Virus record (IMG/VR): IMGVR_UViG_2513237361_000007
Span: 1 to 12,570 of that record
Length of the DNA stretch: 12,570 nt
Source: a virus
Taxonomy: Duplodnaviria; Heunggongvirae; Uroviricota; Caudoviricetes
Strand: one strand, 5' to 3'
Positions 1-9,949 of this stretch are shown here, piece by piece. Under the pieces are notes generated by a model that had not been told where the DNA came from, ran no database searches, and saw only the letters and a list, made by a program, of their open reading frames with translations. The first letter of the stretch is position 1, and the number at the start of each line of letters is the position of its first letter. The translations under genes and the position numbers were made by a program.

Positions 1-108
1 TTACTTCCGCTTATTCAGCCAGCTCACGATCAGGCTGGCGAGAATGCCAGCAATGACCGGAGCCGCTAAATCGTGCCAGAAGGCCATGCCTAACTGCGCG
101 AGCGTCAT
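1..108 (-). CDS. Ldr-family type I toxin peptide, 35 aa (MTLAQLGMAFWHDLAAPVIAGILASLIVSWLNKRK)
   Basis: Hand translation of the minus strand: ATG at 108-106, stop at 3-1. The peptide closely resembles E. coli Ldr toxins (LdrD-like FWHDLAAP...NKRK) as I recall them; single hydrophobic helix with basic C-terminus. Too short for the ORF track. Confidence 0.5.
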   Translation of the reverse strand: MTLAQLGMAFWHDLAAPVIAGILASLIVSWLNKRK

Positions 109-149
109 ATAGCCGCCTGTGTTGTAATGACAACGTTTCGCGGCTATTC

Positions 150-494
150 TTGAATGGGCTAGAGTCCAGATATGTCATTCAGCGAGGAGCTAATGCCAAT
201 GGTGCATGGATACGCTGGTCAGATGGTGCAATAGAAGTATTTGGAACCGGTGGATCTAATGATAATGGACTGGCTAAAGTTGTTTACCCAATTGCACTGC
301 CTAAACTTTCACGTTTTATCAGTATCGCGGAAAGAATAAGAACGGATTACGAGAGCACACCTAATAATGTTCACGTTTCAATGATCGTGGATGATCAGGT
401 AACAAATACCGGCTTTTATGCCCGCTGCCAGATGTACGACGGCAGACCATCATCAAATGCTTTTTCCTGGAGGGTTTATTGTGCGCCTGTTTAA
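150..494 (+). pseudogene. Tail-fibre C-terminal cassette fragment, 5'-truncated
   Basis: ORF begins at TTG and the frame stays open back to position 57 with no ATG. It lacks the conserved PWP...CNG...AYP motif seen at the start of the opposite cassette. Position and orientation mirror the alternative cassette; assignment is by context, not recognised homology. Confidence 0.4.
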
Positions 495-678
495 TCCAGT
501 TACTTTGACTGAAGTAATCCCCGGTCTTCATGACGTGACCGGGGCTATTGAATTACCGGAGGACAACTGGTTTTTTACTATGACAGAAATTCCTCAGGGC
601 ATGGAGCTAACAATTAATGAGAAAGGCGAACCAATACTAATTGAGGTTAATCAGTCTCAGGGAATACAGGCCAAATAA
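481..678 (+). CDS. Hypothetical 66-aa protein, possibly a truncated alternative tail-fibre assembly/chaperone gene
   Basis: GTG at 481 lies 6 nt after GGAGG (470-474) and overlaps the stop of the upstream cassette, suggesting coupling. No conserved Tfa C-terminal domain; the 3' end overlaps the convergent tfa gene. Confidence 0.3.
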   Translation: MRLFNPVTLTEVIPGLHDVTGAIELPEDNWFFTMTEIPQGMELTINEKGEPILIEVNQSQGIQAK

Positions 679-1255
679 TATCAGGCGCGGTGCTGGTATC
701 TGTTGCCGTCACTGCGTCAATGTAATTCAGCACCGTGTTAAGTCGGTTGGTTTCTGCCTGCGTCAGACTCCGTCCGGCCTGTAATTTCAGTTGAATCAGA
801 TTGATGGAAGCCATTGCAGTATCCATCAGCGACTGGCGCTGTGCTTCTGCTGCATCTACTGCGGCGCTATGCTGTGCCTCGGTATCCGTCACCCATTTCT
901 CACCATTCCATTTATCGTATGGCGTTAACGGGGCGATAGTGGTTGTATTATCAGGGTAATCCCCCGGAGCTGTGATTTCTTTTGATTCTCCCGTTTCGGT
1001 GTTATAGACAACTTCACCGCGATGGTCTGGCACATATTCCCATGAGTTAAAATCTGCCGAACGGCAGATTGCATAACCAGCCTTATGTGTGCCAGGAGCA
1101 TCTAAACAGGAATATGCGGGGATACCGACACCCACAGCAAGATATTCAATTGATGCAGAAATATACTCCCGTGTCTCACTGTCATAGTTATAAACGGTAA
1201 TCTCTCCTGCCTTTGTGGCAATAAATTTATTATTTAAGATGGCGTTATACATCAT
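647..1255 (-). CDS. Tail fibre assembly protein (lambda Tfa / Mu U-like chaperone)
   Basis: 202-aa ORF whose C-terminus (…NRLNTVLNYIDAVTATDTSTAPDIIWPVFPE) matches the conserved Tfa C-terminal domain. Its start overlaps the stop of the upstream fibre cassette. Confidence 0.8.
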   Translation of the reverse strand: MMYNAILNNKFIATKAGEITVYNYDSETREYISASIEYLAVGVGIPAYSCLDAPGTHKAGYAICRSADFNSWEYVPDHRGEVVYNTETGESKEITAPGDYPDNTTTIAPLTPYDKWNGEKWVTDTEAQHSAAVDAAEAQRQSLMDTAMASINLIQLKLQAGRSLTQAETNRLNTVLNYIDAVTATDTSTAPDIIWPVFPETD

Positions 1256-1830
1256 GCAGCCCTCACAATGTAATTAAATGAAATATTACGTGGGCGTGTC
1301 TCTGCTGCACCGACAATACTGGTACTCAACCCCGTTGCCGTTCGTTTGTTATTTTTATTTCCTTCAATCAAACAGTTGTAATCATCATTACCAATTAACG
1401 AATTGGTGGCATCAATACTGTCCGGGGACAAGGCATTAGTTGTGGAACTTAAAGTCAGCATCTCGTCTGAACTTGGAAGATTTTTTAATGGTGTTTCATT
1501 GCGTGAAATACCCGCATAAAAAAAGGACTCATGCCTGTGAGCTTCAAAAGAGTCATCCTGAAGACTTAGCAAGGCTCGCCCCGCATCCACTCCACGTCCA
1601 TCATCCCAGCCACGAATAAATTCACCGCGTAAATCAGGCAATTTATTGGTCGGGTAAGCCTTTGCCAGTTCCGGGTATTCTTCAGCAGAAAAAGCCGCAC
1701 CATTGCATTTCAGCCAGCCTGTTGGCGGAGTGGCTGAAGGCCACGGAACAGGCACCCCAACCGGTAATGCAGAGCCTTCTCCCAAACCAACGTTTAAGAA
1801 AATGCAGCGATTACGACTAACTGGCATCAT
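1252..1830 (-). CDS. Tail-fibre variable C-terminal cassette, lacking the constant N-terminal part of the fibre gene
   Basis: N-terminal region carries the motif PVGVPVPWPSATPPTGWLKCNGAAFSAEEYPELAKAYP typical of the variable region of P2 H / Mu S fibres. Only 192 aa, with the crossover site inside codons 10-18, so the annotated Met is probably not a real start. Confidence 0.7.
   Translation of the reverse strand: MMPVSRNRCIFLNVGLGEGSALPVGVPVPWPSATPPTGWLKCNGAAFSAEEYPELAKAYPTNKLPDLRGEFIRGWDDGRGVDAGRALLSLQDDSFEAHRHESFFYAGISRNETPLKNLPSSDEMLTLSSTTNALSPDSIDATNSLIGNDDYNCLIEGNKNNKRTATGLSTSIVGAAETRPRNISFNYIVRAA
1777..1802. other. Putative hix/gix/cix-like inversion crossover site (TTCTCCCAAACCAACGTTTAAGAAAA)
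   Basis: 26-bp 12-2-12 element with AAACC-AA-CGTTT centre, resembling Hin/Gin sites as recalled (e.g. TTCTTGAAAACCAAGGTTTTTGATAA). Sits at the 5' end of the fibre cassette about 55 bp from the invertase start, where gixR/hixR-type sites lie. Confidence 0.5.
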
Positions 1831-1857
1831 CCCCGATTTTTATTCAAGGAGATGATC

Positions 1858-2424
1858 ATGCTTATTGGTTATGTACGCGTGTCAACAAATGACCAGAACA
1901 CCGATTTGCAACGTAATGCACTGAATTGCGCGGGATGTGAGCGGATTTTTGAGGACAAAATCAGTGGCACTAAGTCCGACAGACCGGGGCTTAAAAAACT
2001 GCTTAGGACACTATCGGCAGGAGACACTCTGGTTGTCTGGAAGCTGGACAGGTTGGGGCGCAGTATGCGGCATCTTGTTACGCTGATAGAAGAGTTGCGC
2101 CAGCGTGGTGTGAATTTCCGAAGCCTGACTGACAGTATTGATACCAGCACCCCAATGGGCCGTTTCTTTTTTCATGTCATGGGTGCCCTGGCTGAAATGG
2201 AACGCGAACTGATAGTTGAACGTACCAGGGCGGGGATTGCTGCAGCTCGCGACAAAGGCAGAGTAGGTGGACGCCGTCCTAAGTTGACCAGCGAACAGTG
2301 GGCACAGATTGGGCGTTTACTCGAGGCCGGAGAATCAAGACAGCGTATTGCACTGATTTTTGATGTGGGCGTTTCTACCATTTATCGAAAATTTCCGGCA
2401 AATAAGAGCAATGAATCTCCCTGA
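1858..2424 (+). CDS. Serine DNA invertase (Pin/Gin/Hin/Cin family)
   Basis: N-terminus MLIGYVRVSTNDQNTDLQRNAL... with catalytic Ser in YVRVSTNDQ and a C-terminal HTH, very close to E. coli PinE as recalled. Start placed at ATG 1858 (AAGGAG at 1846-1851, 6-nt spacer) rather than ATG 1852. Confidence 0.9.
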   Translation: MLIGYVRVSTNDQNTDLQRNALNCAGCERIFEDKISGTKSDRPGLKKLLRTLSAGDTLVVWKLDRLGRSMRHLVTLIEELRQRGVNFRSLTDSIDTSTPMGRFFFHVMGALAEMERELIVERTRAGIAAARDKGRVGGRRPKLTSEQWAQIGRLLEAGESRQRIALIFDVGVSTIYRKFPANKSNESP

Positions 2425-2472
2425 ATCAGCTTTATTTTGATTATCCCTGAAAGCAGATAAATACCGTCATTT

Positions 2473-2490
2473 TGTGTGAATAACGGTACA
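2473..2490 (+). promoter_or_regulatory. Candidate Ogr-dependent late promoter element (TGT-N12-ACA) upstream of FI
   Basis: TGTGTGAATAACGGTACA fits the TGT-N12-ACA dyad described for P2/P4 late promoters, about 75 bp upstream of the FI start. No transcript start can be determined from sequence. Confidence 0.35.
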
Positions 2491-2566
2491 ACTGCGCTTA
2501 GCTGTTTGTCAGGCACAATCACTTCAACATAGGGCGAAGCCTAATCCAATCAGGAGGTTCGCCACT

Positions 2567-3740
2567 ATGGCTCAGGATTACCACCACGGGGTGCGCGTTG
2601 TTGAAGTCAACGAAGGCACCCGATCCATTACCACGGTGAGCACCGCCATCGTGGGTATGGTCTGCACGGGCGATGATGCCGATGCAAAAATGTTTCCTCT
2701 TAATAAACCCGTGCTGATCACTGATGTGCTGACTGCCAGCGGTAAAGCGGGTGAGTCCGGCACACTGGCCCGTTCGCTGGACGCCATTGCTGACCAGGCA
2801 AAACCCGTGACCGTTGTTGTGCGTGTACCGCAGGGTGAAACGGAAGAAGAAACCACGACCAATATCATCGGAGCAGTGACCGCTGAAGGTAAAAAAACAA
2901 GGCATGAAAGCCCTGTTATCTGCCCAGTCACTGCTCGGCGTTAAACCGCGCATTCTCGGCGTGCCAGGCCACGACACCAAGGCGGTAGCTACTGAGTTGC
3001 TGAGCGTGGCGCAAAGCCTGCGTGGGTTTGCTTACCTGTCAGCGTATGGCTGCAAGACAGTGCAGGAGGCGATCGCTTACCGTGAAAACTTCAGCCAGCG
3101 CGAAGGAATGCTGATCTGGCCCGACTTTACTGGCTGGGACACGGTGCTGAATGCCGAAGCAACGGCATATGCCACCGCCCGTGCGCTTGGTCTGCGTGCC
3201 AAAATTGATGAGCAGACTGGGTGGCACAAAAGCCTGTCCAACGTGGGCGTGAACGGTGTCACCGGAATTTCTGCAGATGTGTTCTGGGATCTGCAGGACC
3301 CGGCAACCGATGCAGGTCTGCTGAACCAGAACGACGTCACCACGCTTGTGCGTAAAGACGGTTTCCGCTTCTGGGGTTCCCGCTGCCTGAGTGATGACCC
3401 GCTCTTTGCCTTCGAAAACTACACCCGCACGGCGCAGGTGCTGACGGACACAATGGCAGAAGCGCACATGTGGGCAGTGGACAAACCGCTGAACCCGTCG
3501 CTGGCGCGCGACATTATCGAGGGCATCCGCGCCAAAATGCGCAGCCTGGTCAGTCAGGGGTATCTCATTGGTGGTGATTGCTGGCTGGACGAGTCGGTGA
3601 ACGACAAAGACACGCTGAAAGCCGGAAAACTCACCATCGACTACGACTACACGCCAGTGCCGCCACTTGAAAACCTGATGTTGCGTCAGCGCATCACCGA
3701 TCAGTACCTGGTGAATTTCGCCACCCAGGTCAGCGCGTAA
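2567..3740 (+). pseudogene. FI: Tail sheath protein FI, disrupted by a +1 frameshift in an A7 tract (2891-2897)
   Basis: ORF 2567-2944 encodes the FI N-terminus ([19 protein letters not shown]...) and ORF 2904-3740 the rest (…[11 protein letters not shown]…[24 protein letters not shown]), in different frames. Removing one A gives continuous ...[29 protein letters not shown]..., collinear with P2 FI as recalled. Confidence 0.85.
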
Positions 3741-3749
3741 GGGGACAAC

Positions 3750-4265
3750 ATGGCTTTACCACGCAAATTAAAACACCTGAACCTGTTTAACGACGGGAAC
3801 AACTGGCAGGGGATCGTTGAGTCGCTGACGCTGCCGAAATTCACCCGCAAATATGAGAAGTATCGCGGCGGCGGAATGCCGGGGGCAGTGGATGTGGATC
3901 TGGGGCTTGATGACAGTGCGCTGGACACAGAATTTTCCATTGGTGGTACTGAACTGCTGCTGTTTAAGCAGATGGGCAAAGCCACGGTGGATGGCATCCA
4001 GTTGCGCTTTACCGGCTCTATCCAGCGTGACGATACCGGGGAAGTGCAGGCCGTGGAGCTTGTGGTGCGTGGACGTCACAAAGAAGTGGATTCCGGTGAG
4101 TGGAAGACGGGCGAAAGCAACACCACCAAAGTGACCAGTACCAACAGCTACGCGAAGCTGACCATCAATGGTGAGGTGCTCTATGAAGTGGACCTTATCA
4201 ACATGGTGGAAATTGTGGACGGTGTGGACCTGATGGAAGCGCACCGCAACGCCCTCGGCCTCTGA
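3750..4265 (+). CDS. FII: Tail tube protein FII
   Basis: 171 aa; MALPRKLKHLNLF...GSIQRDDTGEV...NMVEIVDGVD resembles P2 gpFII and sits immediately after FI. Confidence 0.9.
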   Translation: MALPRKLKHLNLFNDGNNWQGIVESLTLPKFTRKYEKYRGGGMPGAVDVDLGLDDSALDTEFSIGGTELLLFKQMGKATVDGIQLRFTGSIQRDDTGEVQAVELVVRGRHKEVDSGEWKTGESNTTKVTSTNSYAKLTINGEVLYEVDLINMVEIVDGVDLMEAHRNALGL

Positions 4266-4319
4266 TGTATCTGAACGGCGCGGAATGCCGCGCCAGAACC
4301 TAATTTACAGGACAACAAA

Positions 4320-4622
4320 ATGAGCGATAAGCAGACTGAAAAGACCATTCAACTGGATACCCCTATCAAGCGCGGTAAAACAGAAATTACCGAAATTGTG
4401 CTGCGTAAACCGCAGTCCGGTGCGCTGCGCGGTACACGCCTGCAGGCCATTATGGATATGGATGTGAACGCGATGATGACCGTGATCCCCCGCATCTCCA
4501 GTCCGGCACTGACTGCACAGGAAATTGCAGAGATGGACCCGGCAGATCTCACTGCCATGTCGGTTGAGGTTGTCACTTTTTTGTTGAAGAAGTCGGTGCT
4601 TACCGGTTTACCGACAGCCTGA
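4320..4622 (+). CDS. E: Tail assembly chaperone E
   Basis: 100-aa ORF between FII and T containing the slippery heptamer; position and size as in the P2 FETUD operon. Confidence 0.85.
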   Translation: MSDKQTEKTIQLDTPIKRGKTEITEIVLRKPQSGALRGTRLQAIMDMDVNAMMTVIPRISSPALTAQEIAEMDPADLTAMSVEVVTFLLKKSVLTGLPTA

Positions 4623-4756
4623 CGGTTGACGATCTGGTGGCTGATATCGCCACCATCTTTCACTGGCCGCCATCCGTTACTGACGTTATGCCGCTGACCG
4701 AAGTGCTGGAATGGCGGTATAAAGCGATTCAGAGAAGCGGGGCCAACGATGAGTGA
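4320..4756 (+). CDS. E': E+E' extended chaperone made by -1 programmed frameshift at 4577-4583
   Basis: After a -1 slip at T_TTT_TTG the -1 frame stays open for 58 codons (…VEEVGAYRFTDSLTVDDLVADIATIFHWPPSVTDVMPLTEVLEWRYKAIQRSGANDE) to TGA 4754-4756, overlapping the T start at 4749. Confidence 0.7.
4577..4583 (+). other. Slippery heptamer TTTTTTG for the E/E' -1 frameshift
   Basis: In-frame as T TTT TTG (codons ACT TTT TTG); same heptamer reported for P2 E/E'. Confidence 0.7.
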
Positions 4757-7700
4757 TAATAACCTGCGCCTGCAGGTCATTCTTAATGCGGTTGACAAAC
4801 TCACCCGCCCATTCCGTGCTGCACAGGCCAGTTCGAAAGAGCTGGCTGGCGCAATTCAGAATACCCGAAACAGCCTCAAAGAATTGAATAAGCAGGCTGG
4901 CAGAATTGATGAATTTCGCAAGACGCGCTCGCAACTAGCCATAACAGCCAACAACCTGAACGCAGCCCGCGAAGAGGCGGCAAAACTCGCCACACAATTT
5001 GCTGCCACTAACAGGCCAACCGCCGCGCAGGCAAAGTTATTCAGTCAGGCCAAAACACGAGTACAGGAACTTCAGCAGACCTATAACGGCTTGTTGGGGG
5101 CGGTCCAGAGACAACGTCAGGCACTTAAAGAATCAGGGATTGATACCAGACAACTCAGTAGTGCCCAGCGAGAACTTAAGAAAAATGCTGAAGAAACAAG
5201 GCAGGCACTGGAGGGCCAGCAAAAAGCACTTAAACGTCTGGGTGAGCAACAGGCACGGATGAACGCTGCCAGAGAACAATACTCAAGACGGCTTGAAGTG
5301 CGCGATCGCATCGCAGGAGCCGGAGCCACTACCACGGCTGCAGGGCTGGCAATGGGTGCGCCAGTGATGGCGGCAGTAAAAAGCTATACCAGCATGGAAG
5401 ATGCCATGAAAGGTGTGGCAAAGCAGGTCAATGGTCTGCGTGACGATAATGGCAACCGCACTGCACGTTTTTATGAAATGCAGGATGCCATCAAGGCTGC
5501 CAGCGAACAGTTGCCGATGGAAAACGGTGCGGTGGACTTCGCTGCACTGGTTGAAGGTGGTGCGCGCATGAACGTCGCAAACCCTGACGACAGCTGGGAA
5601 GACCAGAAACGTGACCTGCTGGCCTTCGCCAGTACGGCAGCAAAGGCGGCAACAGCCTTTGAGCTGCCAGCGGATGAACTGTCAGAAAGTCTGGGGAAAA
5701 TCGCCCAGCTCTACAAAATACCTACCCGCAATATTGAACAGCTCGGCGATGCGCTGAACTATCTGGATGATAACGCCATGTCGAAAGGGGCGGACATCAT
5801 TGATGTGATGCAACGTCTGGGCGGTGTGGCTGACCGTCTGGATTATCGTAAAGCGGCGGCACTGGGTTCCACCTTTCTGACACTGGGTGCTGCGCCGGAG
5901 GTTGCAGCCAGTGCAGCAAACGCGATGGTGCGTGAATTGTCCATTGCCACCATGCAAAGCAAGAGTTTCTTTGAAGGGATGAATCTGCTGAAACTCAATC
6001 CTGAAGTGATTGAAAAGCAGATGACGAAGGATGCGATGGGAACTATCCAGCGTGTGCTGGAGAAGGTGAACGCACTGCCGCAGGACAATCGTCTGTCTGC
6101 CATGACCATGTTGTTTGGTAAAGAGTTTGGTGATGATGCAGCGAAACTGGCAAACAACCTTCCGGAACTGCAGCGCCAGCTAAAACTGACAGCGGACAAT
6201 GATGCGCTCGGTTCCATGCAGAAAGAATCCGACATCAACAAAGACTCACTTTCCGCTCAGTGGTTGCTGGTCAAAACTGGAGCGCAGAACACCTTCAGCA
6301 GCCTGGGCGAAACGCTGCGCCAGCCGCTGATGGATATTCTGTACACGGTGAAAAGCATTACGGGGGCGTTGCGCCGCTGGGTGGAAGCTAACCCGGAACT
6401 GACAGGCACACTGATGAAAGTAGCGGCTGTTGTGGCTGCGGTTACCGTAGGCCTCGGCACCTTAGCGGTGGCGCTGGCTGCAGTGCTGGGGCCGCTGGCA
6501 GTGATCCGTCTGGGATTCTCTGTGCTGGGTATCAAAACGTTACCTTCCGTTACGGCAGCAGTAACTCGAACCAGCAACGCGTTGTCCTGGCTGGCTGGCG
6601 CTCCACTGGCACTGCTGCGACGCGGGCTTGCTTCATCGGGCAACGCCGCAGGTTTACTTACTGCGCCGTTGTCGTCTTTGCGCCGCACGGCATCACTGAC
6701 GGGAAATGTCCTGAAAACTGTAGCAGGTGCGCCAGTTGCACTTTTGCGGTCTGGATTATCCGGTTTACGTGCTGTTGCTGTGATGTTTATGAATCCTCTG
6801 GCGGTACTGCGCGGTGGACTGGCAGCCGCAGGCGCGGTGCTGCGAGTGCTTGCATCTGGTCCGCTGGCGATGCTGCGCGTTGCCCTGTATGCCATATCTG
6901 GTCTGTTAGGTGCTCTGCTCAGTCCGATAGGTCTTGTGGTTACTGCACTGGCGGGCGTGGCGCTGGTTGTCTGGAAATACTGGCAACCCATTACCGCATT
7001 TCTCGGTGGCGTGGTGGAAGGATTCAAAGCGGCGGCAGGTCCCATCAGTGCAGCGTTTGAACCACTTAAGCCCGTGTTCCAGTGGATTGGCGACAAAGTG
7101 CAGGCGCTGTGGGGCTGGTTTACTGATCTGCTGACGCCTGTTAAGTCGACCTCTGCCGAACTGCAGAGCGCAGCGGCAATGGGGCGACGATTCGGGGAGG
7201 CACTGGCGGAAGGGCTGAATATGGTCATGCATCCGCTGGACTCCCTGAAATCCGGTGTTTCCTGGTTGCTGGATAAACTCGGCATTGTCAGTAAAGAGGC
7301 TGCAAAGGCGAAACTGCCGGAAAGCGTGACGCGTCAGCAACCTGCGACGGTGAATGCAGACGGTAAAGTGATGATGCCATCGGGTGGTTTTCCGTCATGG
7401 GGATATGGCTTTGCGGGGATGTATGACAGCGGCGGCTATATCCCGCGCGGGCAGTTTGGCATCGTCGGTGAAAACGGGCCGGAAATTGTCAACGGCCCGG
7501 CAAACGTGACCAGCCGGAGAAATACCGCTGCACTGGCTGCGGTTGTTGCCGGAATGATGGGCGTTGCTGCCGCGCCTGCAGAGCTTCCACCGTTACATCC
7601 TTTGGCACTTCCCGCGAAAGGCGGCGAAGCGATGGTGAGTCGTGCAGCCACTGTGCCGCCCGTTCAACGGCTTGAGGCACCGACGCAGATCATCATTCAG

Positions 7701-7826
7701 ACGCAGCCAGGACAAAGTGCGCAGGATATTGCGCGGGAGGTTGCACGCCAGCTTGATGAACGTGAACGCAGGCTGAAGGCAAAAGCCAGGAGTAACTACA
7801 GCGATCAGGGGGGATACGAAGCATGA
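4749..7826 (+). CDS. T: Tail tape measure protein T
   Basis: 1025-aa ORF with coiled-coil-like N-terminal half, a hydrophobic repeat-containing middle and a glycine-rich C-terminus; follows E/E' and overlaps U (ATGA at 7823-7826). Confidence 0.9.
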   Translation: MSDNNLRLQVILNAVDKLTRPFRAAQASSKELAGAIQNTRNSLKELNKQAGRIDEFRKTRSQLAITANNLNAAREEAAKLATQFAATNRPTAAQAKLFSQAKTRVQELQQTYNGLLGAVQRQRQALKESGIDTRQLSSAQRELKKNAEETRQALEGQQKALKRLGEQQARMNAAREQYSRRLEVRDRIAGAGATTTAAGLAMGAPVMAAVKSYTSMEDAMKGVAKQVNGLRDDNGNRTARFYEMQDAIKAASEQLPMENGAVDFAALVEGGARMNVANPDDSWEDQKRDLLAFASTAAKAATAFELPADELSESLGKIAQLYKIPTRNIEQLGDALNYLDDNAMSKGADIIDVMQRLGGVADRLDYRKAAALGSTFLTLGAAPEVAASAANAMVRELSIATMQSKSFFEGMNLLKLNPEVIEKQMTKDAMGTIQRVLEKVNALPQDNRLSAMTMLFGKEFGDDAAKLANNLPELQRQLKLTADNDALGSMQKESDINKDSLSAQWLLVKTGAQNTFSSLGETLRQPLMDILYTVKSITGALRRWVEANPELTGTLMKVAAVVAAVTVGLGTLAVALAAVLGPLAVIRLGFSVLGIKTLPSVTAAVTRTSNALSWLAGAPLALLRRGLASSGNAAGLLTAPLSSLRRTASLTGNVLKTVAGAPVALLRSGLSGLRAVAVMFMNPLAVLRGGLAAAGAVLRVLASGPLAMLRVALYAISGLLGALLSPIGLVVTALAGVALVVWKYWQPITAFLGGVVEGFKAAAGPISAAFEPLKPVFQWIGDKVQALWGWFTDLLTPVKSTSAELQSAAAMGRRFGEALAEGLNMVMHPLDSLKSGVSWLLDKLGIVSKEAAKAKLPESVTRQQPATVNADGKVMMPSGGFPSWGYGFAGMYDSGGYIPRGQFGIVGENGPEIVNGPANVTSRRNTAALAAVVAGMMGVAAAPAELPPLHPLALPAKGGEAMVSRAATVPPVQRLEAPTQIIIQTQPGQSAQDIAREVARQLDERERRLKAKARSNYSDQGGYEA
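6603..6890 (+). repeat. Five degenerate tandem repeats of about 63-66 bp inside T, encoding P(L/V)AxLRxGL-type segments
   Basis: Related units begin near 6603, 6666, 6733, 6795 and 6861 (e.g. CCACTGGCACTGCTGCGACGCGGGCTT, CCAGTTGCACTTTTGCGGTCTGGATTA, CCTCTGGCGGTACTGCGCGGTGGACTG, CCGCTGGCGATGCTGCGCGTTGCCCTG). Confidence 0.5.
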
Positions 7827-8308
7827 TGATGGTGCTGGGATTGTACGTGTTTATGCTGCGCACCGTGCCGTATCAGGAGCTGCAGTATCAACGCAGCTGG
7901 CGACATGCGGCAAACAGCCGGGTAAACCGACGTCCGTCCACGCAGTTTCTGGGACCGGACAACGACATGCTGACGCTTTCCGGTGTTCTTATGCCGGAGA
8001 TAACAGGTGGCAGGCTGTCGTTGCTGGCACTGGAGCAGATGGCAGAACAGGGGAAAGCATGGCCCCTGATTGAAGGCAGCGGCACGATTTATGGCATGTA
8101 TGTGATTGAGGGACTGAATCAGACTAAAACGGAGTTTTTCCGCGACGGTATGCCGCGCCGGATTGAGTTCACCCTGTCGCTCAAAAGGGTGGATGAATCA
8201 TTGTCCGATATGTTCGGTGATCTCAGTGCGCAACTGAATAATCTGCAGGACACGGCAACGTCTGCCTTAAGCGATATCAGTAAAACGGTGGGAGGGCTGC
8301 TGTCGTGA
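7823..8308 (+). CDS. U: Tail protein U
   Basis: 161 aa; MMMVLGLYVFMLRTVPYQELQYQRSWRH...FRDGMPRRIEFTLSLKRVDE is near-collinear with P2 gpU as recalled. Confidence 0.9.
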   Translation: MMMVLGLYVFMLRTVPYQELQYQRSWRHAANSRVNRRPSTQFLGPDNDMLTLSGVLMPEITGGRLSLLALEQMAEQGKAWPLIEGSGTIYGMYVIEGLNQTKTEFFRDGMPRRIEFTLSLKRVDESLSDMFGDLSAQLNNLQDTATSALSDISKTVGGLLS

Positions 8309-9405
8309 ATTTCAGCTCTGAACTGCTTAACAAAGGCAACAAAACTCCCGCATTCAGCATCAGTATTGAGGGCAGGGATATCACCACTGTGCTGGATAAC
8401 CGCCTGATGAGTCTGACGCTGACGGATAACCGGGGCTTTGAAGCGGACCAGCTTGATCTGGAGCTGGACGACGCCGATGGAAAAATAGCGCTGCCGCGCC
8501 GTGGTGCGGTCATTACGCTGGCGCTGGGCTGGAAGGGGCAGCCGCTTTTCCCGAAAGGGGCATTCACGGTGGACGAGATTGAACACACTGGCGCACCGGA
8601 CCGCCTGACTATCCGGGCGCGAAGTGCTGATTTTCGGGAAACGCTGAATACCCGCCGTGAAAAGTCGTGGCACAAGACCACTGTCGGGGAAGTGGTGAAG
8701 GAAATAGCTGTGCGGCACAAACTGAAGATGGCACTGGGTAAAGACCTGTCAGATAAACCCGTGGAACATATAGACCAGACTAATGAGAGTGACGGCAGTT
8801 TTCTGATGCGGCTGGCGCGCCAGTACGGTGCTATTGCGTCGGTGAAAAATGGCAATCTGTTATTCATCCGGCAGGGACAGGGTAAAAGCGCCAGCGGTAA
8901 ACCACTACCGGTTATCACTATCACACGTAAGGACGGCGACAGTCACCGCTTTACCCTGGCAGATCGCGGAGCCTACACGGGCGTAATTGCCAGCTGGTTG
9001 CATACCCGCGAACCCGCGAAGAAAGAAAGCACCACGGTGAAGCGTAAGCGCAGGACTAAGAAGCAGAAGAAAGAGCCGGAAGCGAAGCAGGGCGATTACC
9101 TGGTGGGTACAGATGAAAACGTGCTGGTACTTAATCGCACTTATGCCAACCGGAGCAACGCTGAACGGGCTGCGAAAATGCAGTGGGAACGCCTGCAACG
9201 CGGCGTTGCGTCATTCTCGCTACAACTGGCGGAAGGGCGGGCAGAACTCTATACGGAAATGCCAGTGAAAGTCAGTGGCTTTAAACAGCCGATAGATGAT
9301 GCGGAATGGACCATTACGACTCTGACACATACCGTCAGCCCGGATAATGGTTTTACGACCAGTCTGGAGCTTGAAGTGAGGATTGATGATTTCAAAATGG
9401 AATGA
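8305..9405 (+). CDS. D: Tail protein D (late control gene D family)
   Basis: 366-aa ORF after U with GTGA start/stop overlap; contains a Lys/Arg-rich low-complexity segment (KRKRRTKKQKKEPEAKQ). Confidence 0.85.
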   Translation: MNFSSELLNKGNKTPAFSISIEGRDITTVLDNRLMSLTLTDNRGFEADQLDLELDDADGKIALPRRGAVITLALGWKGQPLFPKGAFTVDEIEHTGAPDRLTIRARSADFRETLNTRREKSWHKTTVGEVVKEIAVRHKLKMALGKDLSDKPVEHIDQTNESDGSFLMRLARQYGAIASVKNGNLLFIRQGQGKSASGKPLPVITITRKDGDSHRFTLADRGAYTGVIASWLHTREPAKKESTTVKRKRRTKKQKKEPEAKQGDYLVGTDENVLVLNRTYANRSNAERAAKMQWERLQRGVASFSLQLAEGRAELYTEMPVKVSGFKQPIDDAEWTITTLTHTVSPDNGFTTSLELEVRIDDFKME

Positions 9406-9495
9406 TTCTTCGCAATGGAGAACTTTTAAGTTTGCAAAATGGAATAATGCGGTATCATTATTGTGAATTTAGCAAAAATGGGGAGAACTCGAAAA

Positions 9496-9714
9496 ATGAT
9501 GATTTGCCCACTGTGTGGAAGTGCCGCCCATACTCGCAGCAGTTTTCAGGTATCTTCATTGACCAAAGAGCGTTACAACCAGTGCCAGAACATTAACTGC
9601 AGCCATACTTTTGTTACCCATGAAACTTTTGTTCGTTCGATTGCAACGCCAAAAGAGTCAAATCCGGTTCAGCCGCATCCAATGAAATCAGGACAGGTGG
9701 CGCTCTCTCTTTGA
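9496..9714 (+). CDS. ogr: Ogr/Delta-family zinc-finger late transcription activator
   Basis: MMICPLCGSAAHTRSS...KERYNQCQNINCSHTF...RPHP with Cys4 CxxC...CxxxxC arrangement like P2 Ogr. Start at ATG 9496 (GGGGAG at 9480-9485) preferred over ATG 9463. Confidence 0.85.
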   Translation: MMICPLCGSAAHTRSSFQVSSLTKERYNQCQNINCSHTFVTHETFVRSIATPKESNPVQPHPMKSGQVALSL

Positions 9715-9800
9715 CTCTGCCGCCAATTTGTCGCCATCGTTAAAAAACACTGCTTCTAACATCATGATTTTAAAAGGCATAAATTTTAGGCAACAAAAAA

Positions 9801-9838
9801 CCCATCAACCTTGAACCTAAATGGCGGGGTTGATGGGC
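9801..9838 (-). terminator. Rho-independent terminator downstream of ybjL
   Basis: Inverted repeat CCCATCAACC (9801-9810) / GGTTGATGGG (9828-9837); on the minus strand the hairpin is followed by TTTTTTGTTG (complement of 9791-9800). Confidence 0.6.
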
Positions 9839-9949
9839 TCCACAAAATGGGGACATCAAAGAAAAGCAGTGGCACTAATTAAGACTGATACCCTGAAGAA
9901 AAGTTCTGCGGTTGTACAAAAAAATTTCATTTTTAGGGCAACTTCAGTT

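What the first reader, a model, noticed from the sequence alone, without database searches (positions are those of the whole stretch)
1..150. Ldr-like type I toxin ORF directly abutting phage DNA, apparently without its leader or antisense partner
The 35-aa ORF looks like an Ldr toxin, but phage-derived sequence begins within about 40-50 bp of its start codon. Ldr mRNAs are described as having a long 5' leader with a cis-antisense Rdl RNA upstream, and there seems to be no room for these. The phage fragment may therefore have been joined inside a long direct repeat, leaving a toxin ORF driven from phage DNA or silent.
Basis: partly seen in the sequence, partly recalled or inferred. Interest (0 to 1): 0.55.

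Follow-up and report, generated by a model that had tools for sequence, protein, structure and literature searches.

The report
Ldr toxin–prophage join: probable misassembly
A genuine Ldr toxin gene does lie 58 bases from phage DNA in this record, but the join falls exactly where genome assemblers routinely end contigs, so it is most likely an artefact of a 2011 draft assembly, not a real orphaned toxin.

Summary
Positions 108..1 (-) encode a canonical 35-aa Ldr toxin (Pfam Ldr_toxin, 88 bits). LDR homology stops at 166, which is 58 nt upstream of the ATG. From 167 the DNA is the inside of an invertible tail-fibre segment of a P2-like prophage at rybB/ybjL. Only 10 of the 66 nt of the Rdl antitoxin remain, and the ldr promoter and distal leader are gone.

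The window is 100% identical to AEME01000001.1, a single 4.81-Mb 'contig' of Escherichia sp. TW09308 (clade V, E. marmotae). No other dataset searched has this join: 5,426 complete E. coli genomes, the GTDB species representatives, JGI metagenomes, and every other E. marmotae contig read.

The phage side begins at the first nucleotide after the 15-bp inverted repeat of the invertible segment. An independent assembly has a contig that starts at that same base. In 37% of index blocks this segment sits on contigs shorter than 2 kb. The LDR side ends 2 nt after the last copy-specific base. The prophage part is 99.97% identical to intact prophages at the same site in sister strains.

Verdict: probably two contig ends joined blunt (about 0.8). 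A real rearrangement is possible (about 0.15) and would leave a promoterless, probably silent toxin ORF. Interest is low.

The parts
1..108 (-). ldr: 35-aa Ldr type I toxin ORF (LdrD-type)
   Evidence: One search gives the ORF. PF13940, 88.4 bits. The peptide is identical to the bcsG-proximal Ldr of E. marmotae genomes.
109..166 (-). The retained proximal 58 nt of the ldr 5' leader (includes the RBS). The rest of the roughly 180-190-nt leader and the ldr promoter are absent.
   Evidence: 100% identical to L006 up to 166. In intact LDRs homology continues for more than 200 nt further.
122..166 (+). Putative Rdl promoter (TTGTAA 122-127, 17-nt spacer, TATTCT 145-150) plus the first 10 nt of Rdl (157-166). 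The Rdl stem-loops and terminator are missing.
   Evidence: The rdlD position is taken from the Rfam hits in L003 and L006 and the K-12 annotation. The window has no rdlD hit. The promoter hexamers are read from the sequence by inference; they fall below the scan threshold.
166..167 (.). Junction between LDR-derived and prophage-derived DNA; only C166 is shared.
   Evidence: The independent contig DAKLQW010000008.1 starts at window-equivalent 167.
167..494 (+). 3' variable part (last ~109 codons) of one alternative tail-fibre gene H. It lacks its 354-codon constant part and the left crossover site.
   Evidence: In intact prophages L015/L016 this part is fused to Hc, giving a 463-aa H protein (P0076). 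Weak Gp53-like_C match.
481..678 (+). Conserved 65-aa ORF downstream of that tail-fibre variant (a position like Mu U'); no Pfam match.
   Evidence: Called in all related prophages; no Pfam family.
647..1255 (-). Tail fibre assembly protein of the alternative (currently silent) cassette.
   Evidence: PF02413 Caudo_TAP, 109.9 bits.
1252..1830 (-). Alternative tail-fibre C-terminal cassette (Collar domain). It is expressed only after inversion fuses it to Hc.
   Evidence: PF07484 Collar. It is fused to Hc as a 528-aa H protein in the inverted loci L017, L018, L020 and L021.
1777..1802 (+). Right 26-bp crossover site of Gin/Pin/Cin type, TTCTCCCAAACCAACGTTTAAGAAAA. It is the only such site in the window; its partner is missing.
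   Evidence: 1 match against 0.00 expected. The left partner TTCTCACATACCTTGGTTTGGGAGAA is present in L015 at window-equivalent 139-164.
1858..2424 (+). Serine DNA invertase (188 aa).
   Evidence: PF00239 Resolvase 179 bits plus PF02796 HTH_7.
2567..9778 (+). Right arm of the P2-like prophage: sheath FI (frameshifted by an extra A at 2900), tube FII, E/E', tape measure T, U, D and ogr. The prophage ends at about 9778.
   Evidence: Gene lists. 99.97% identical to L015 with one 1-nt insertion. Chromosomal homology resumes at 9779.
9792..9870 (-). RybB sRNA gene, which marks the chromosomal attachment locus.
   Evidence: Rfam RF00110, 106.5 bits.

Best explanation
The ldr-prophage junction at 166/167 is most likely not a structure of the living genome. 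It is most likely a blunt join of two contig ends inside the pseudo-molecule AEME01000001.1, the 4.81-Mb single 'contig' of Escherichia sp. TW09308.

One contig ran bcsA...bcsG-ldr and stopped in the LDR, just past the short patch that differs between the two LDR copies of the relative L006. Whether TW09308 has a second LDR copy is not known. The other contig started at the first unambiguous base inside the invertible tail-fibre segment of a P2-like prophage and ran on to ogr, rybB and ybjL.

In the real chromosome I expect two ordinary loci: a normal bcsG-LDR(n)-yhjV locus with intact ldr/rdl units, and a complete P2-like prophage at rybB.

Shown: the exact junction, its uniqueness, the coincidence with an independent contig end, the lack of decay, and the intact arrangement in sister strains.

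Inferred: that TW09308's record was built by joining contigs. I could not retrieve the assembly method or the reads.
For: 1. Source. The window is 100% identical to AEME01000001.1, which is TW09308 (PMC7716201).

2. Uniqueness. No place in 5,426 complete E. coli genomes spans the join. The 26-mer across it is absent from the GTDB species representatives and from JGI metagenome contigs. All other E. marmotae contigs read show bcsG-ldr(1-3 or more)-yhjV. L015 and L016 carry the intact prophage.

3. Phage side. The left and right ends of the invertible segment share the 15-nt inverted repeat TTGGTTTGGGAGAAG, and the two possible continuations first differ at window-equivalent 166. The independent contig DAKLQW010000008.1 (GCA_026547865.1) starts at 167, the same base where phage-specific sequence starts in the window. 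Another contig (L024) starts at 1776, the other repeat boundary.

4. Break-point frequency. The 65-aa gene inside the segment is on contigs under 2 kb in 1077 of 2928 index blocks. The comparable figures are 18/525 for ldr, 0/1298 for ybjL and 5/114 for the invertase. A 90% cluster holds 420 'partial' H proteins, and its representative runs off a contig end 26 aa (about 78 nt) past the site.

5. LDR side. In L006 the two tandem LDR copies are identical at 1-153, differ only at 154-164, and are identical again from 165. The LDR part of the window ends at 166.

6. No decay. Window 166-9778 is 99.97% identical to intact prophages in E. marmotae genomes whose chromosomal flank is 100% identical (2 mismatches and 1 indel). 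The bcs flank is 99.7-99.9% identical to relatives.

7. Topology. ldr and ybjL lie on the same strand, 1.8-2.8 Mb apart, in collinear E. marmotae genomes (CP072689.1, CP188181.1, KE137292.1). The window joins them in that same polarity. One reciprocal exchange would therefore split the chromosome into two circles, so at least one further non-collinear join is required.

8. Draft-quality error. An extra A at 2900 breaks the sheath gene, which is intact in all relatives.
Against: - I could not see the reads, the assembly method, or the other two ends (Hc plus crossover site, and the LDR remainder plus yhjV) in the same record.
- The LDR side is 2 nt past the predicted fork, not exactly on it, and TW09308's own second LDR copy is unknown.
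- The junction lies in a patch of partial similarity (AGAGTCAAGA against AGAAGCCAGA). Real microhomology-mediated joins can look like this too.
- At least one E. marmotae assembly (ERZ28757652 contig_4) has ldr and ybjL on opposite strands. A prior inversion followed by a second one could therefore generate this junction naturally.
- A record deposited as one 4.81-Mb contig could in principle be a finished chromosome.
Confidence: 0.8

Rival explanations
1. A real, very recent chromosomal rearrangement in strain TW09308. Illegitimate (1-bp microhomology) joining of a break in the LDR next to bcsG to a break just inside the prophage's invertible segment, for example a large inversion on top of a pre-existing inversion. 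The consequences would be: the Ldr ORF keeps its RBS but loses its promoter, about 125 nt of leader and Rdl; the Rdl promoter now reads into the tail-fibre fragment; the invertible segment is frozen because one crossover site is lost; and the prophage is split and dead. The toxin ORF would most likely be silent.
For: The join is present in a deposited record. There is partial similarity around the junction. Opposite orientation of the two loci exists in one E. marmotae assembly, which makes a two-step inversion route possible. LDR copy number varies from 1 to at least 3 among strains, so the locus is plastic.
Against: It requires the breakpoint to fall by chance on the very base where an independent assembler ended a contig, and within 2 nt of the LDR copy-specific boundary. 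It needs at least two large rearrangements in a genus that is largely collinear. There is no decay of either partner. It is found nowhere else.
Confidence: 0.15
2. The prophage's own serine invertase recombined its left crossover site with a pseudo-site in the LDR leader (quasi-site recombination, as described for Cin), creating the junction.
For: The junction lies next to where the left site should be. The LDR has TTCTTGA at 148-154, which resembles the start of a half-site.
Against: Recombination at the 2-bp core would leave the inner half-site GGTTTGGGAGAA in the product. The window lacks it entirely, and the junction is 14-15 bp from the core. Only one site-like sequence exists in the window at up to 3 mismatches.
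Confidence: 0.02
3. An LDR unit, or part of one, moved into the prophage as a mobile element.
For: None beyond the adjacency.
Against: The LDR part is contiguous with its normal neighbour bcsG and the whole bcs operon, so the chromosomal locus itself is joined to the phage, not a transposed copy. LDRs have no known mobility (my own knowledge).
Confidence: 0.01

Closest known systems
LDR-D (ldrD/rdlD) type I toxin-antitoxin locus of E. coli K-12, between bcsG and yhjV
   Same: Same neighbour (bcsG). Same 35-aa toxin family (the LDR DNA, window 1-171, is 93% identical to E. coli LDRs). Same RBS region and Rdl promoter region up to 58 nt upstream of the ATG.
   Different: In the window the unit stops at Rdl nt 10. 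There are no Rdl stem-loops or terminator, no distal 5' UTR (where the hypothetical ldrX ORF was proposed; PMC4147584), no ldr promoter and no yhjV.
Invertible tail-fibre segments run by Gin/Pin/Cin/Hin-family serine invertases (Mu G segment, P1 C segment, e14 P region)
   Same: Adjacent invertase, a 26-bp crossover site matching TTCTCNNAAACCNNGGTTTNNGAGAA, and two opposed cassettes each with a tail-fibre C-terminus and an assembly protein. Both orientations are seen in related prophages.
   Different: In the window the constant part of the fibre gene and the second crossover site are missing and replaced by LDR. As written, the segment could not invert.
P2-like (Peduoviridae) phages carrying an invertase between the fibre genes and the sheath gene, e.g. 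Escherichia phage Cartapus (NC_070909.1) and phage 500465-1
   Same: 96-97% DNA identity from the right crossover site through invertase, sheath and tube. Same gene order FI-FII-E-T-U-D-ogr.
   Different: Those phages are complete. The window holds only the arm to the right of the fibre gene's variable part.
Contig ends at repeat or inversion boundaries in short-read assemblies
   Same: An independent contig starts at the same base. The segment often sits on isolated contigs under 2 kb. There are hundreds of 'partial' fibre proteins; the one I looked up, the cluster representative, is cut at a contig end 26 aa past the site.
   Different: Here two such ends are fused without a gap marker inside one long record.

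Membership tests
Ldr/Rdl type I toxin-antitoxin (LDR unit) | 35-aa hydrophobic Ldr toxin ORF | tested here: met
   PF13940, 88.4 bits, full length.
Ldr/Rdl type I toxin-antitoxin (LDR unit) | Cis-encoded ~66-nt Rdl antisense RNA opposite the 5' UTR | tested here: not met
   No RF01813 hit in the window at E<=1. Positive controls score 75-87 bits in K-12 and L006. Only nt 1-10 remain.
Ldr/Rdl type I toxin-antitoxin (LDR unit) | Long 5' UTR with its own promoter upstream of Rdl | tested here: not met
   LDR homology ends 58 nt upstream of the ATG. Intact copies continue for more than 200 nt.
Ldr/Rdl type I toxin-antitoxin (LDR unit) | Toxicity on overexpression, repressed by the cognate Rdl | not testable with these tools
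   Known for LdrD from the literature (PMC4147584); the peptide here differs from K-12 LdrD at a few residues.
Serine-invertase tail-fibre switch (Gin/Pin/Cin type) | Serine recombinase with a C-terminal HTH next to the segment | tested here: met
   Resolvase plus HTH_7.
Serine-invertase tail-fibre switch (Gin/Pin/Cin type) | Two 26-bp crossover sites in inverted orientation | tested here: not met
   One site only, at 1777-1802. The partner is present in intact relatives.
Serine-invertase tail-fibre switch (Gin/Pin/Cin type) | Opposed alternative fibre-tip plus assembly-protein cassettes, with a constant 5' gene part outside the segment | tested here: inconclusive
   The cassettes are present. 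The constant part is absent from the window but present in L015/L016.
Serine-invertase tail-fibre switch (Gin/Pin/Cin type) | Fis-dependent enhancer inside the invertase gene | not tested
   -
Assembly chimera (blunt join of contig ends) | Junction found in one assembly only | tested here: met
Assembly chimera (blunt join of contig ends) | Breakpoints coincide with repeat or ambiguity boundaries where assemblers end contigs | tested here: met
   Phage side exact. LDR side within 2 nt.
Assembly chimera (blunt join of contig ends) | No reads span the junction; the true neighbours are recovered by reads or PCR | not testable with these tools
   Reads and the rest of the record could not be reached.

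The most novel reading that the evidence does not exclude
The join is real. A natural strain carries an Ldr toxin ORF cut off from both its promoter/leader and its Rdl antitoxin by fusion to the inside of a phage invertible segment, with the surviving Rdl promoter now transcribing a tail-fibre remnant. This would be a natural experiment on whether a type I toxin gene can persist without its antitoxin when its leader is removed.
Probability: 0.13. Interest if true: 0.35.

Novelty: not a real feature. Interest (0 to 1): 0.08.

Why it matters
If real, the locus would be a mildly interesting case of a type I toxin gene orphaned from its antisense antitoxin, together with a frozen phage tail-fibre switch. 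As things stand, its main value is as a warning. Single-contig records of early draft genomes can hide blunt joins at repeats and at invertible segments. Features that sit exactly on such boundaries should be checked against sister genomes before they are interpreted. The components themselves (Ldr/Rdl, P2-like prophage at rybB, Gin/Pin-type switch) are all well known.

Tried and rejected
1. Invertase-mediated recombination with a pseudo-site in the LDR. Rejected because the product lacks the inner half-site and the junction is 14-15 bp from the core.

2. A partner inverted repeat for the 1777-1802 site inside the window. None was found.

3. The reciprocal ends in the same record (Hc plus site, and LDR remainder plus yhjV).
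- I checked 20 candidate proteins for being cluster representatives. Only the intact 463-aa fibre and one HT073016-specific ORF were.
- A homology search with the constant fibre part listed no protein from the 4,809,826-bp contig among its top 120.
- Looking up the intact fibre did not show the TW09308 record, but places with the same neighbours are collapsed, so this is not proof of absence.

4. The junction elsewhere: GTDB representatives, JGI metagenomes and E. coli complete genomes. All were negative.

5. The assembly method of TW09308. The original PNAS paper is not held, and later papers give only the accession and the clade.

6. A phage promoter reading into ldr. There is only a chance-level match at 286-259.

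Full report
**What is in the sequence**

The minus-strand ORF at 108..1 encodes MTLAQLGMAFWHDLAAPVIAGILASLIVSWLNKRK. This is a full-length match to Pfam Ldr_toxin (88.4 bits). It is the exact peptide encoded next to bcsG in many Escherichia marmotae genomes.

An alignment with the four K-12 LDRs, four IAI39 LDRs and a phage locus, and a base-by-base comparison with E. marmotae relatives, give the junction:
- Window 1-166 is identical to the bcsG-proximal LDR of strain HT073016 (L006).
- Position 167 is the first difference (C here, A in the LDR).
- From 166 onward the window is identical to intact P2-like prophages.

The junction is therefore 166/167, with one shared base. It lies 58 nt upstream of the ldr ATG.

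**What the LDR has lost**

Rfam's rdlD model finds Rdl in K-12 and in both LDR copies of L006, 49-114 nt upstream of the ldr start on the opposite strand (K-12 annotation). In window coordinates that is 157-222. The window gives no rdlD hit even at E<=1, and only Rdl nucleotides 1-10 remain.

The likely Rdl promoter is retained (TTGTAA 122-127 and TATTCT 145-150; read from the sequence, inferred). It would now read into phage DNA.

Intact LDRs stay homologous for more than 200 nt beyond the junction. That stretch holds the long 5' UTR described in the literature, and the ldr promoter is inferred to lie there too (PMC4147584). All of this is missing.

**What the phage DNA is**

Positions 167-1775 are the interior of an invertible tail-fibre segment:
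- 167-494 (+): a fibre C-terminal variant.
- 481-678 (+): a conserved 65-aa ORF.
- 647-1255 (-): an assembly protein of the opposed cassette.
- 1252-1830 (-): a Collar-domain fibre tip of the opposed cassette.
- 1777-1802: a 26-bp Gin/Pin-type crossover site (1 match, none expected by chance).
- 1858-2424 (+): a serine invertase.

Downstream come the P2-type genes FI, FII, E, T, U, D and ogr. The prophage ends at about 9778, 13 nt from the 3' end of RybB (9792-9870), followed by ybjL, ybjM and grxA.

Intact copies of this prophage sit at the same site in other genomes. They carry the constant 354-codon fibre part and a left crossover site, TTCTCACATACCTTGGTTTGGGAGAA, immediately to the left of window-equivalent 166. 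Both orientations of the segment occur. In the window the left site and everything to its left are replaced by the LDR.

**Where the window comes from**

The chromosomal part is only 91.4% identical to E. coli. The window is 100% identical to AEME01000001.1, a 4,809,826-bp 'contig'. That record is Escherichia sp. TW09308, cryptic clade V, which is E. marmotae (PMC7716201 and PMC6650469). To the left of the window the record continues normally into bcsG, bcsF, bcsE and the rest of the operon, at 99.7-99.9% identity to relatives.

**Is the join real?**

Several independent lines say probably not.

1. It is unique.
- No complete E. coli genome (5,426) spans it.
- The 26-mer across it is absent from the GTDB species representatives and from JGI metagenome contigs.
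- Every other E. marmotae contig read has bcsG-ldr(1-3 or more copies)-yhjV.
- L015 and L016 are E. marmotae genomes whose chromosomal flank is 100% identical to the window. They carry the complete prophage at 99.97% identity to the window's part: 2 mismatches and one 1-nt indel in 9.6 kb.

2. The phage side starts at an assembler break point.
- The two ends of the invertible segment share the 15-nt inverted repeat TTGGTTTGGGAGAAG.
- Read from outside, the two possible continuations first differ at window-equivalent 166.
- An unrelated assembly (GCA_026547865.1, contig DAKLQW010000008.1, 215 kb) starts at window-equivalent 167, and another contig starts at 1776, the other boundary.
- The gene inside the segment is on contigs under 2 kb in 1077 of 2928 index blocks. 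The figures are 0/1298 for ybjL and 18/525 for ldr.
- A cluster holds 420 'partial' fibre proteins, and its representative runs off a contig end 26 aa (about 78 nt) past the site.

3. The LDR side ends near a fork. In the type strain the tandem LDR copies differ only at 154-164 and are identical again from 165. The window's LDR part ends at 166.

4. The topology is awkward.
- In collinear E. marmotae genomes ldr and ybjL are on the same strand and 1.8-2.8 Mb apart.
- The window joins them in that same polarity.
- One reciprocal exchange would give two circles, so further non-collinear joins are needed.
- This argument is softened by one assembly (ERZ28757652) in which the two loci are in opposite orientation.

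5. The record has at least one draft-type error. An extra A at 2900 splits the sheath gene, which is intact in all relatives.

**Conclusion**

The best reading (about 0.8) is that two contig ends were joined without a gap marker in a pseudo-molecule. TW09308 would then really have a normal ldr/rdl locus and a complete prophage.

I could not prove this. The reads, the assembly method and the other two ends in the record were out of reach.

The main rival (about 0.15) is a real, very recent illegitimate join. In that case the toxin ORF would lack its promoter, most of its leader and its antitoxin. It would probably be silent, because the upstream minus-strand phage genes are a promoterless cassette and the only promoter-like match is at chance level.

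Invertase-mediated recombination with a pseudo-site is excluded by the junction sequence.

**Comparison with known systems**

The parts are ordinary:
- an LdrD-type LDR unit at its usual bcsG position;
- a Gin/Pin/Cin-type tail-fibre switch;
- a P2-like prophage close to phage Cartapus, integrated at rybB.

Nothing here is a new kind of system. The only unusual thing is the join itself, and that is most likely not biological.

Noticed in passing
window 2890-2910 (sheath gene FI, 2567-3740): An extra A at 2900 (CAAGG where all relatives have CAGG) splits the 390-aa sheath gene into 125-aa and 278-aa ORFs. It is probably a sequencing or assembly error in the draft, not a real pseudogene.
   Followed up: partly
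window 9779-9870: The P2-like prophage ends at about 9778, 13 nt from the 3' end of the RybB sRNA gene (9792-9870, 106.5 bits). The same rybB/ybjL site is occupied by this prophage in E. coli and E. marmotae and by a 96%-identical relative in CP188181.1, so it looks like a conserved attachment site next to an sRNA terminator.
   Followed up: partly
window 166-700; L001 (E. coli FEX669, NZ_CP065152.1 9943-10477): The same fibre-tip cassette (100% identical over 535 bp) sits in a different prophage with baseplate J/gp47, GP46 and YmfQ-family genes near ssrA, next to a different recombinase gene and a slightly different crossover site (TTCTCAAAAACGTTGGTTTGGGAGAA). Invertible cassettes appear to be exchanged between unrelated phage backbones.
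   Followed up: partly
L017 and L022 (E. coli NCTC8623, LR134234.1 8211-24777 and 4928956-4943400): The same prophage appears near the start and at the extreme end of this linearised 4.94-Mb record, with the invertible segment in opposite orientations and many frameshifts in the end copy. This looks like an untrimmed circular overlap that captured both orientations from a mixed culture.
   Followed up: no
window 481-678 (+): A 65-aa ORF with no Pfam match is strictly conserved downstream of one fibre variant, where a full tail-fibre assembly protein would be expected. Its exact sequence is listed in 2,928 index blocks.
   Followed up: no
L050-L059 (E. marmotae bcsG-yhjV loci): LDR copy number at this locus varies from 1 to at least 3 among E. 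marmotae strains, and most copies encode the identical peptide. The copies in L006 differ mainly in an 11-nt patch at the Rdl 5' end (window-equivalent 154-164).
   Followed up: partly
ERZ28757652 contig_4 (L011, L033): In this E. marmotae assembly ldr and ybjL lie on opposite strands, unlike in the other genomes read. This suggests a large inversion, or a misassembly, in that record.
   Followed up: no
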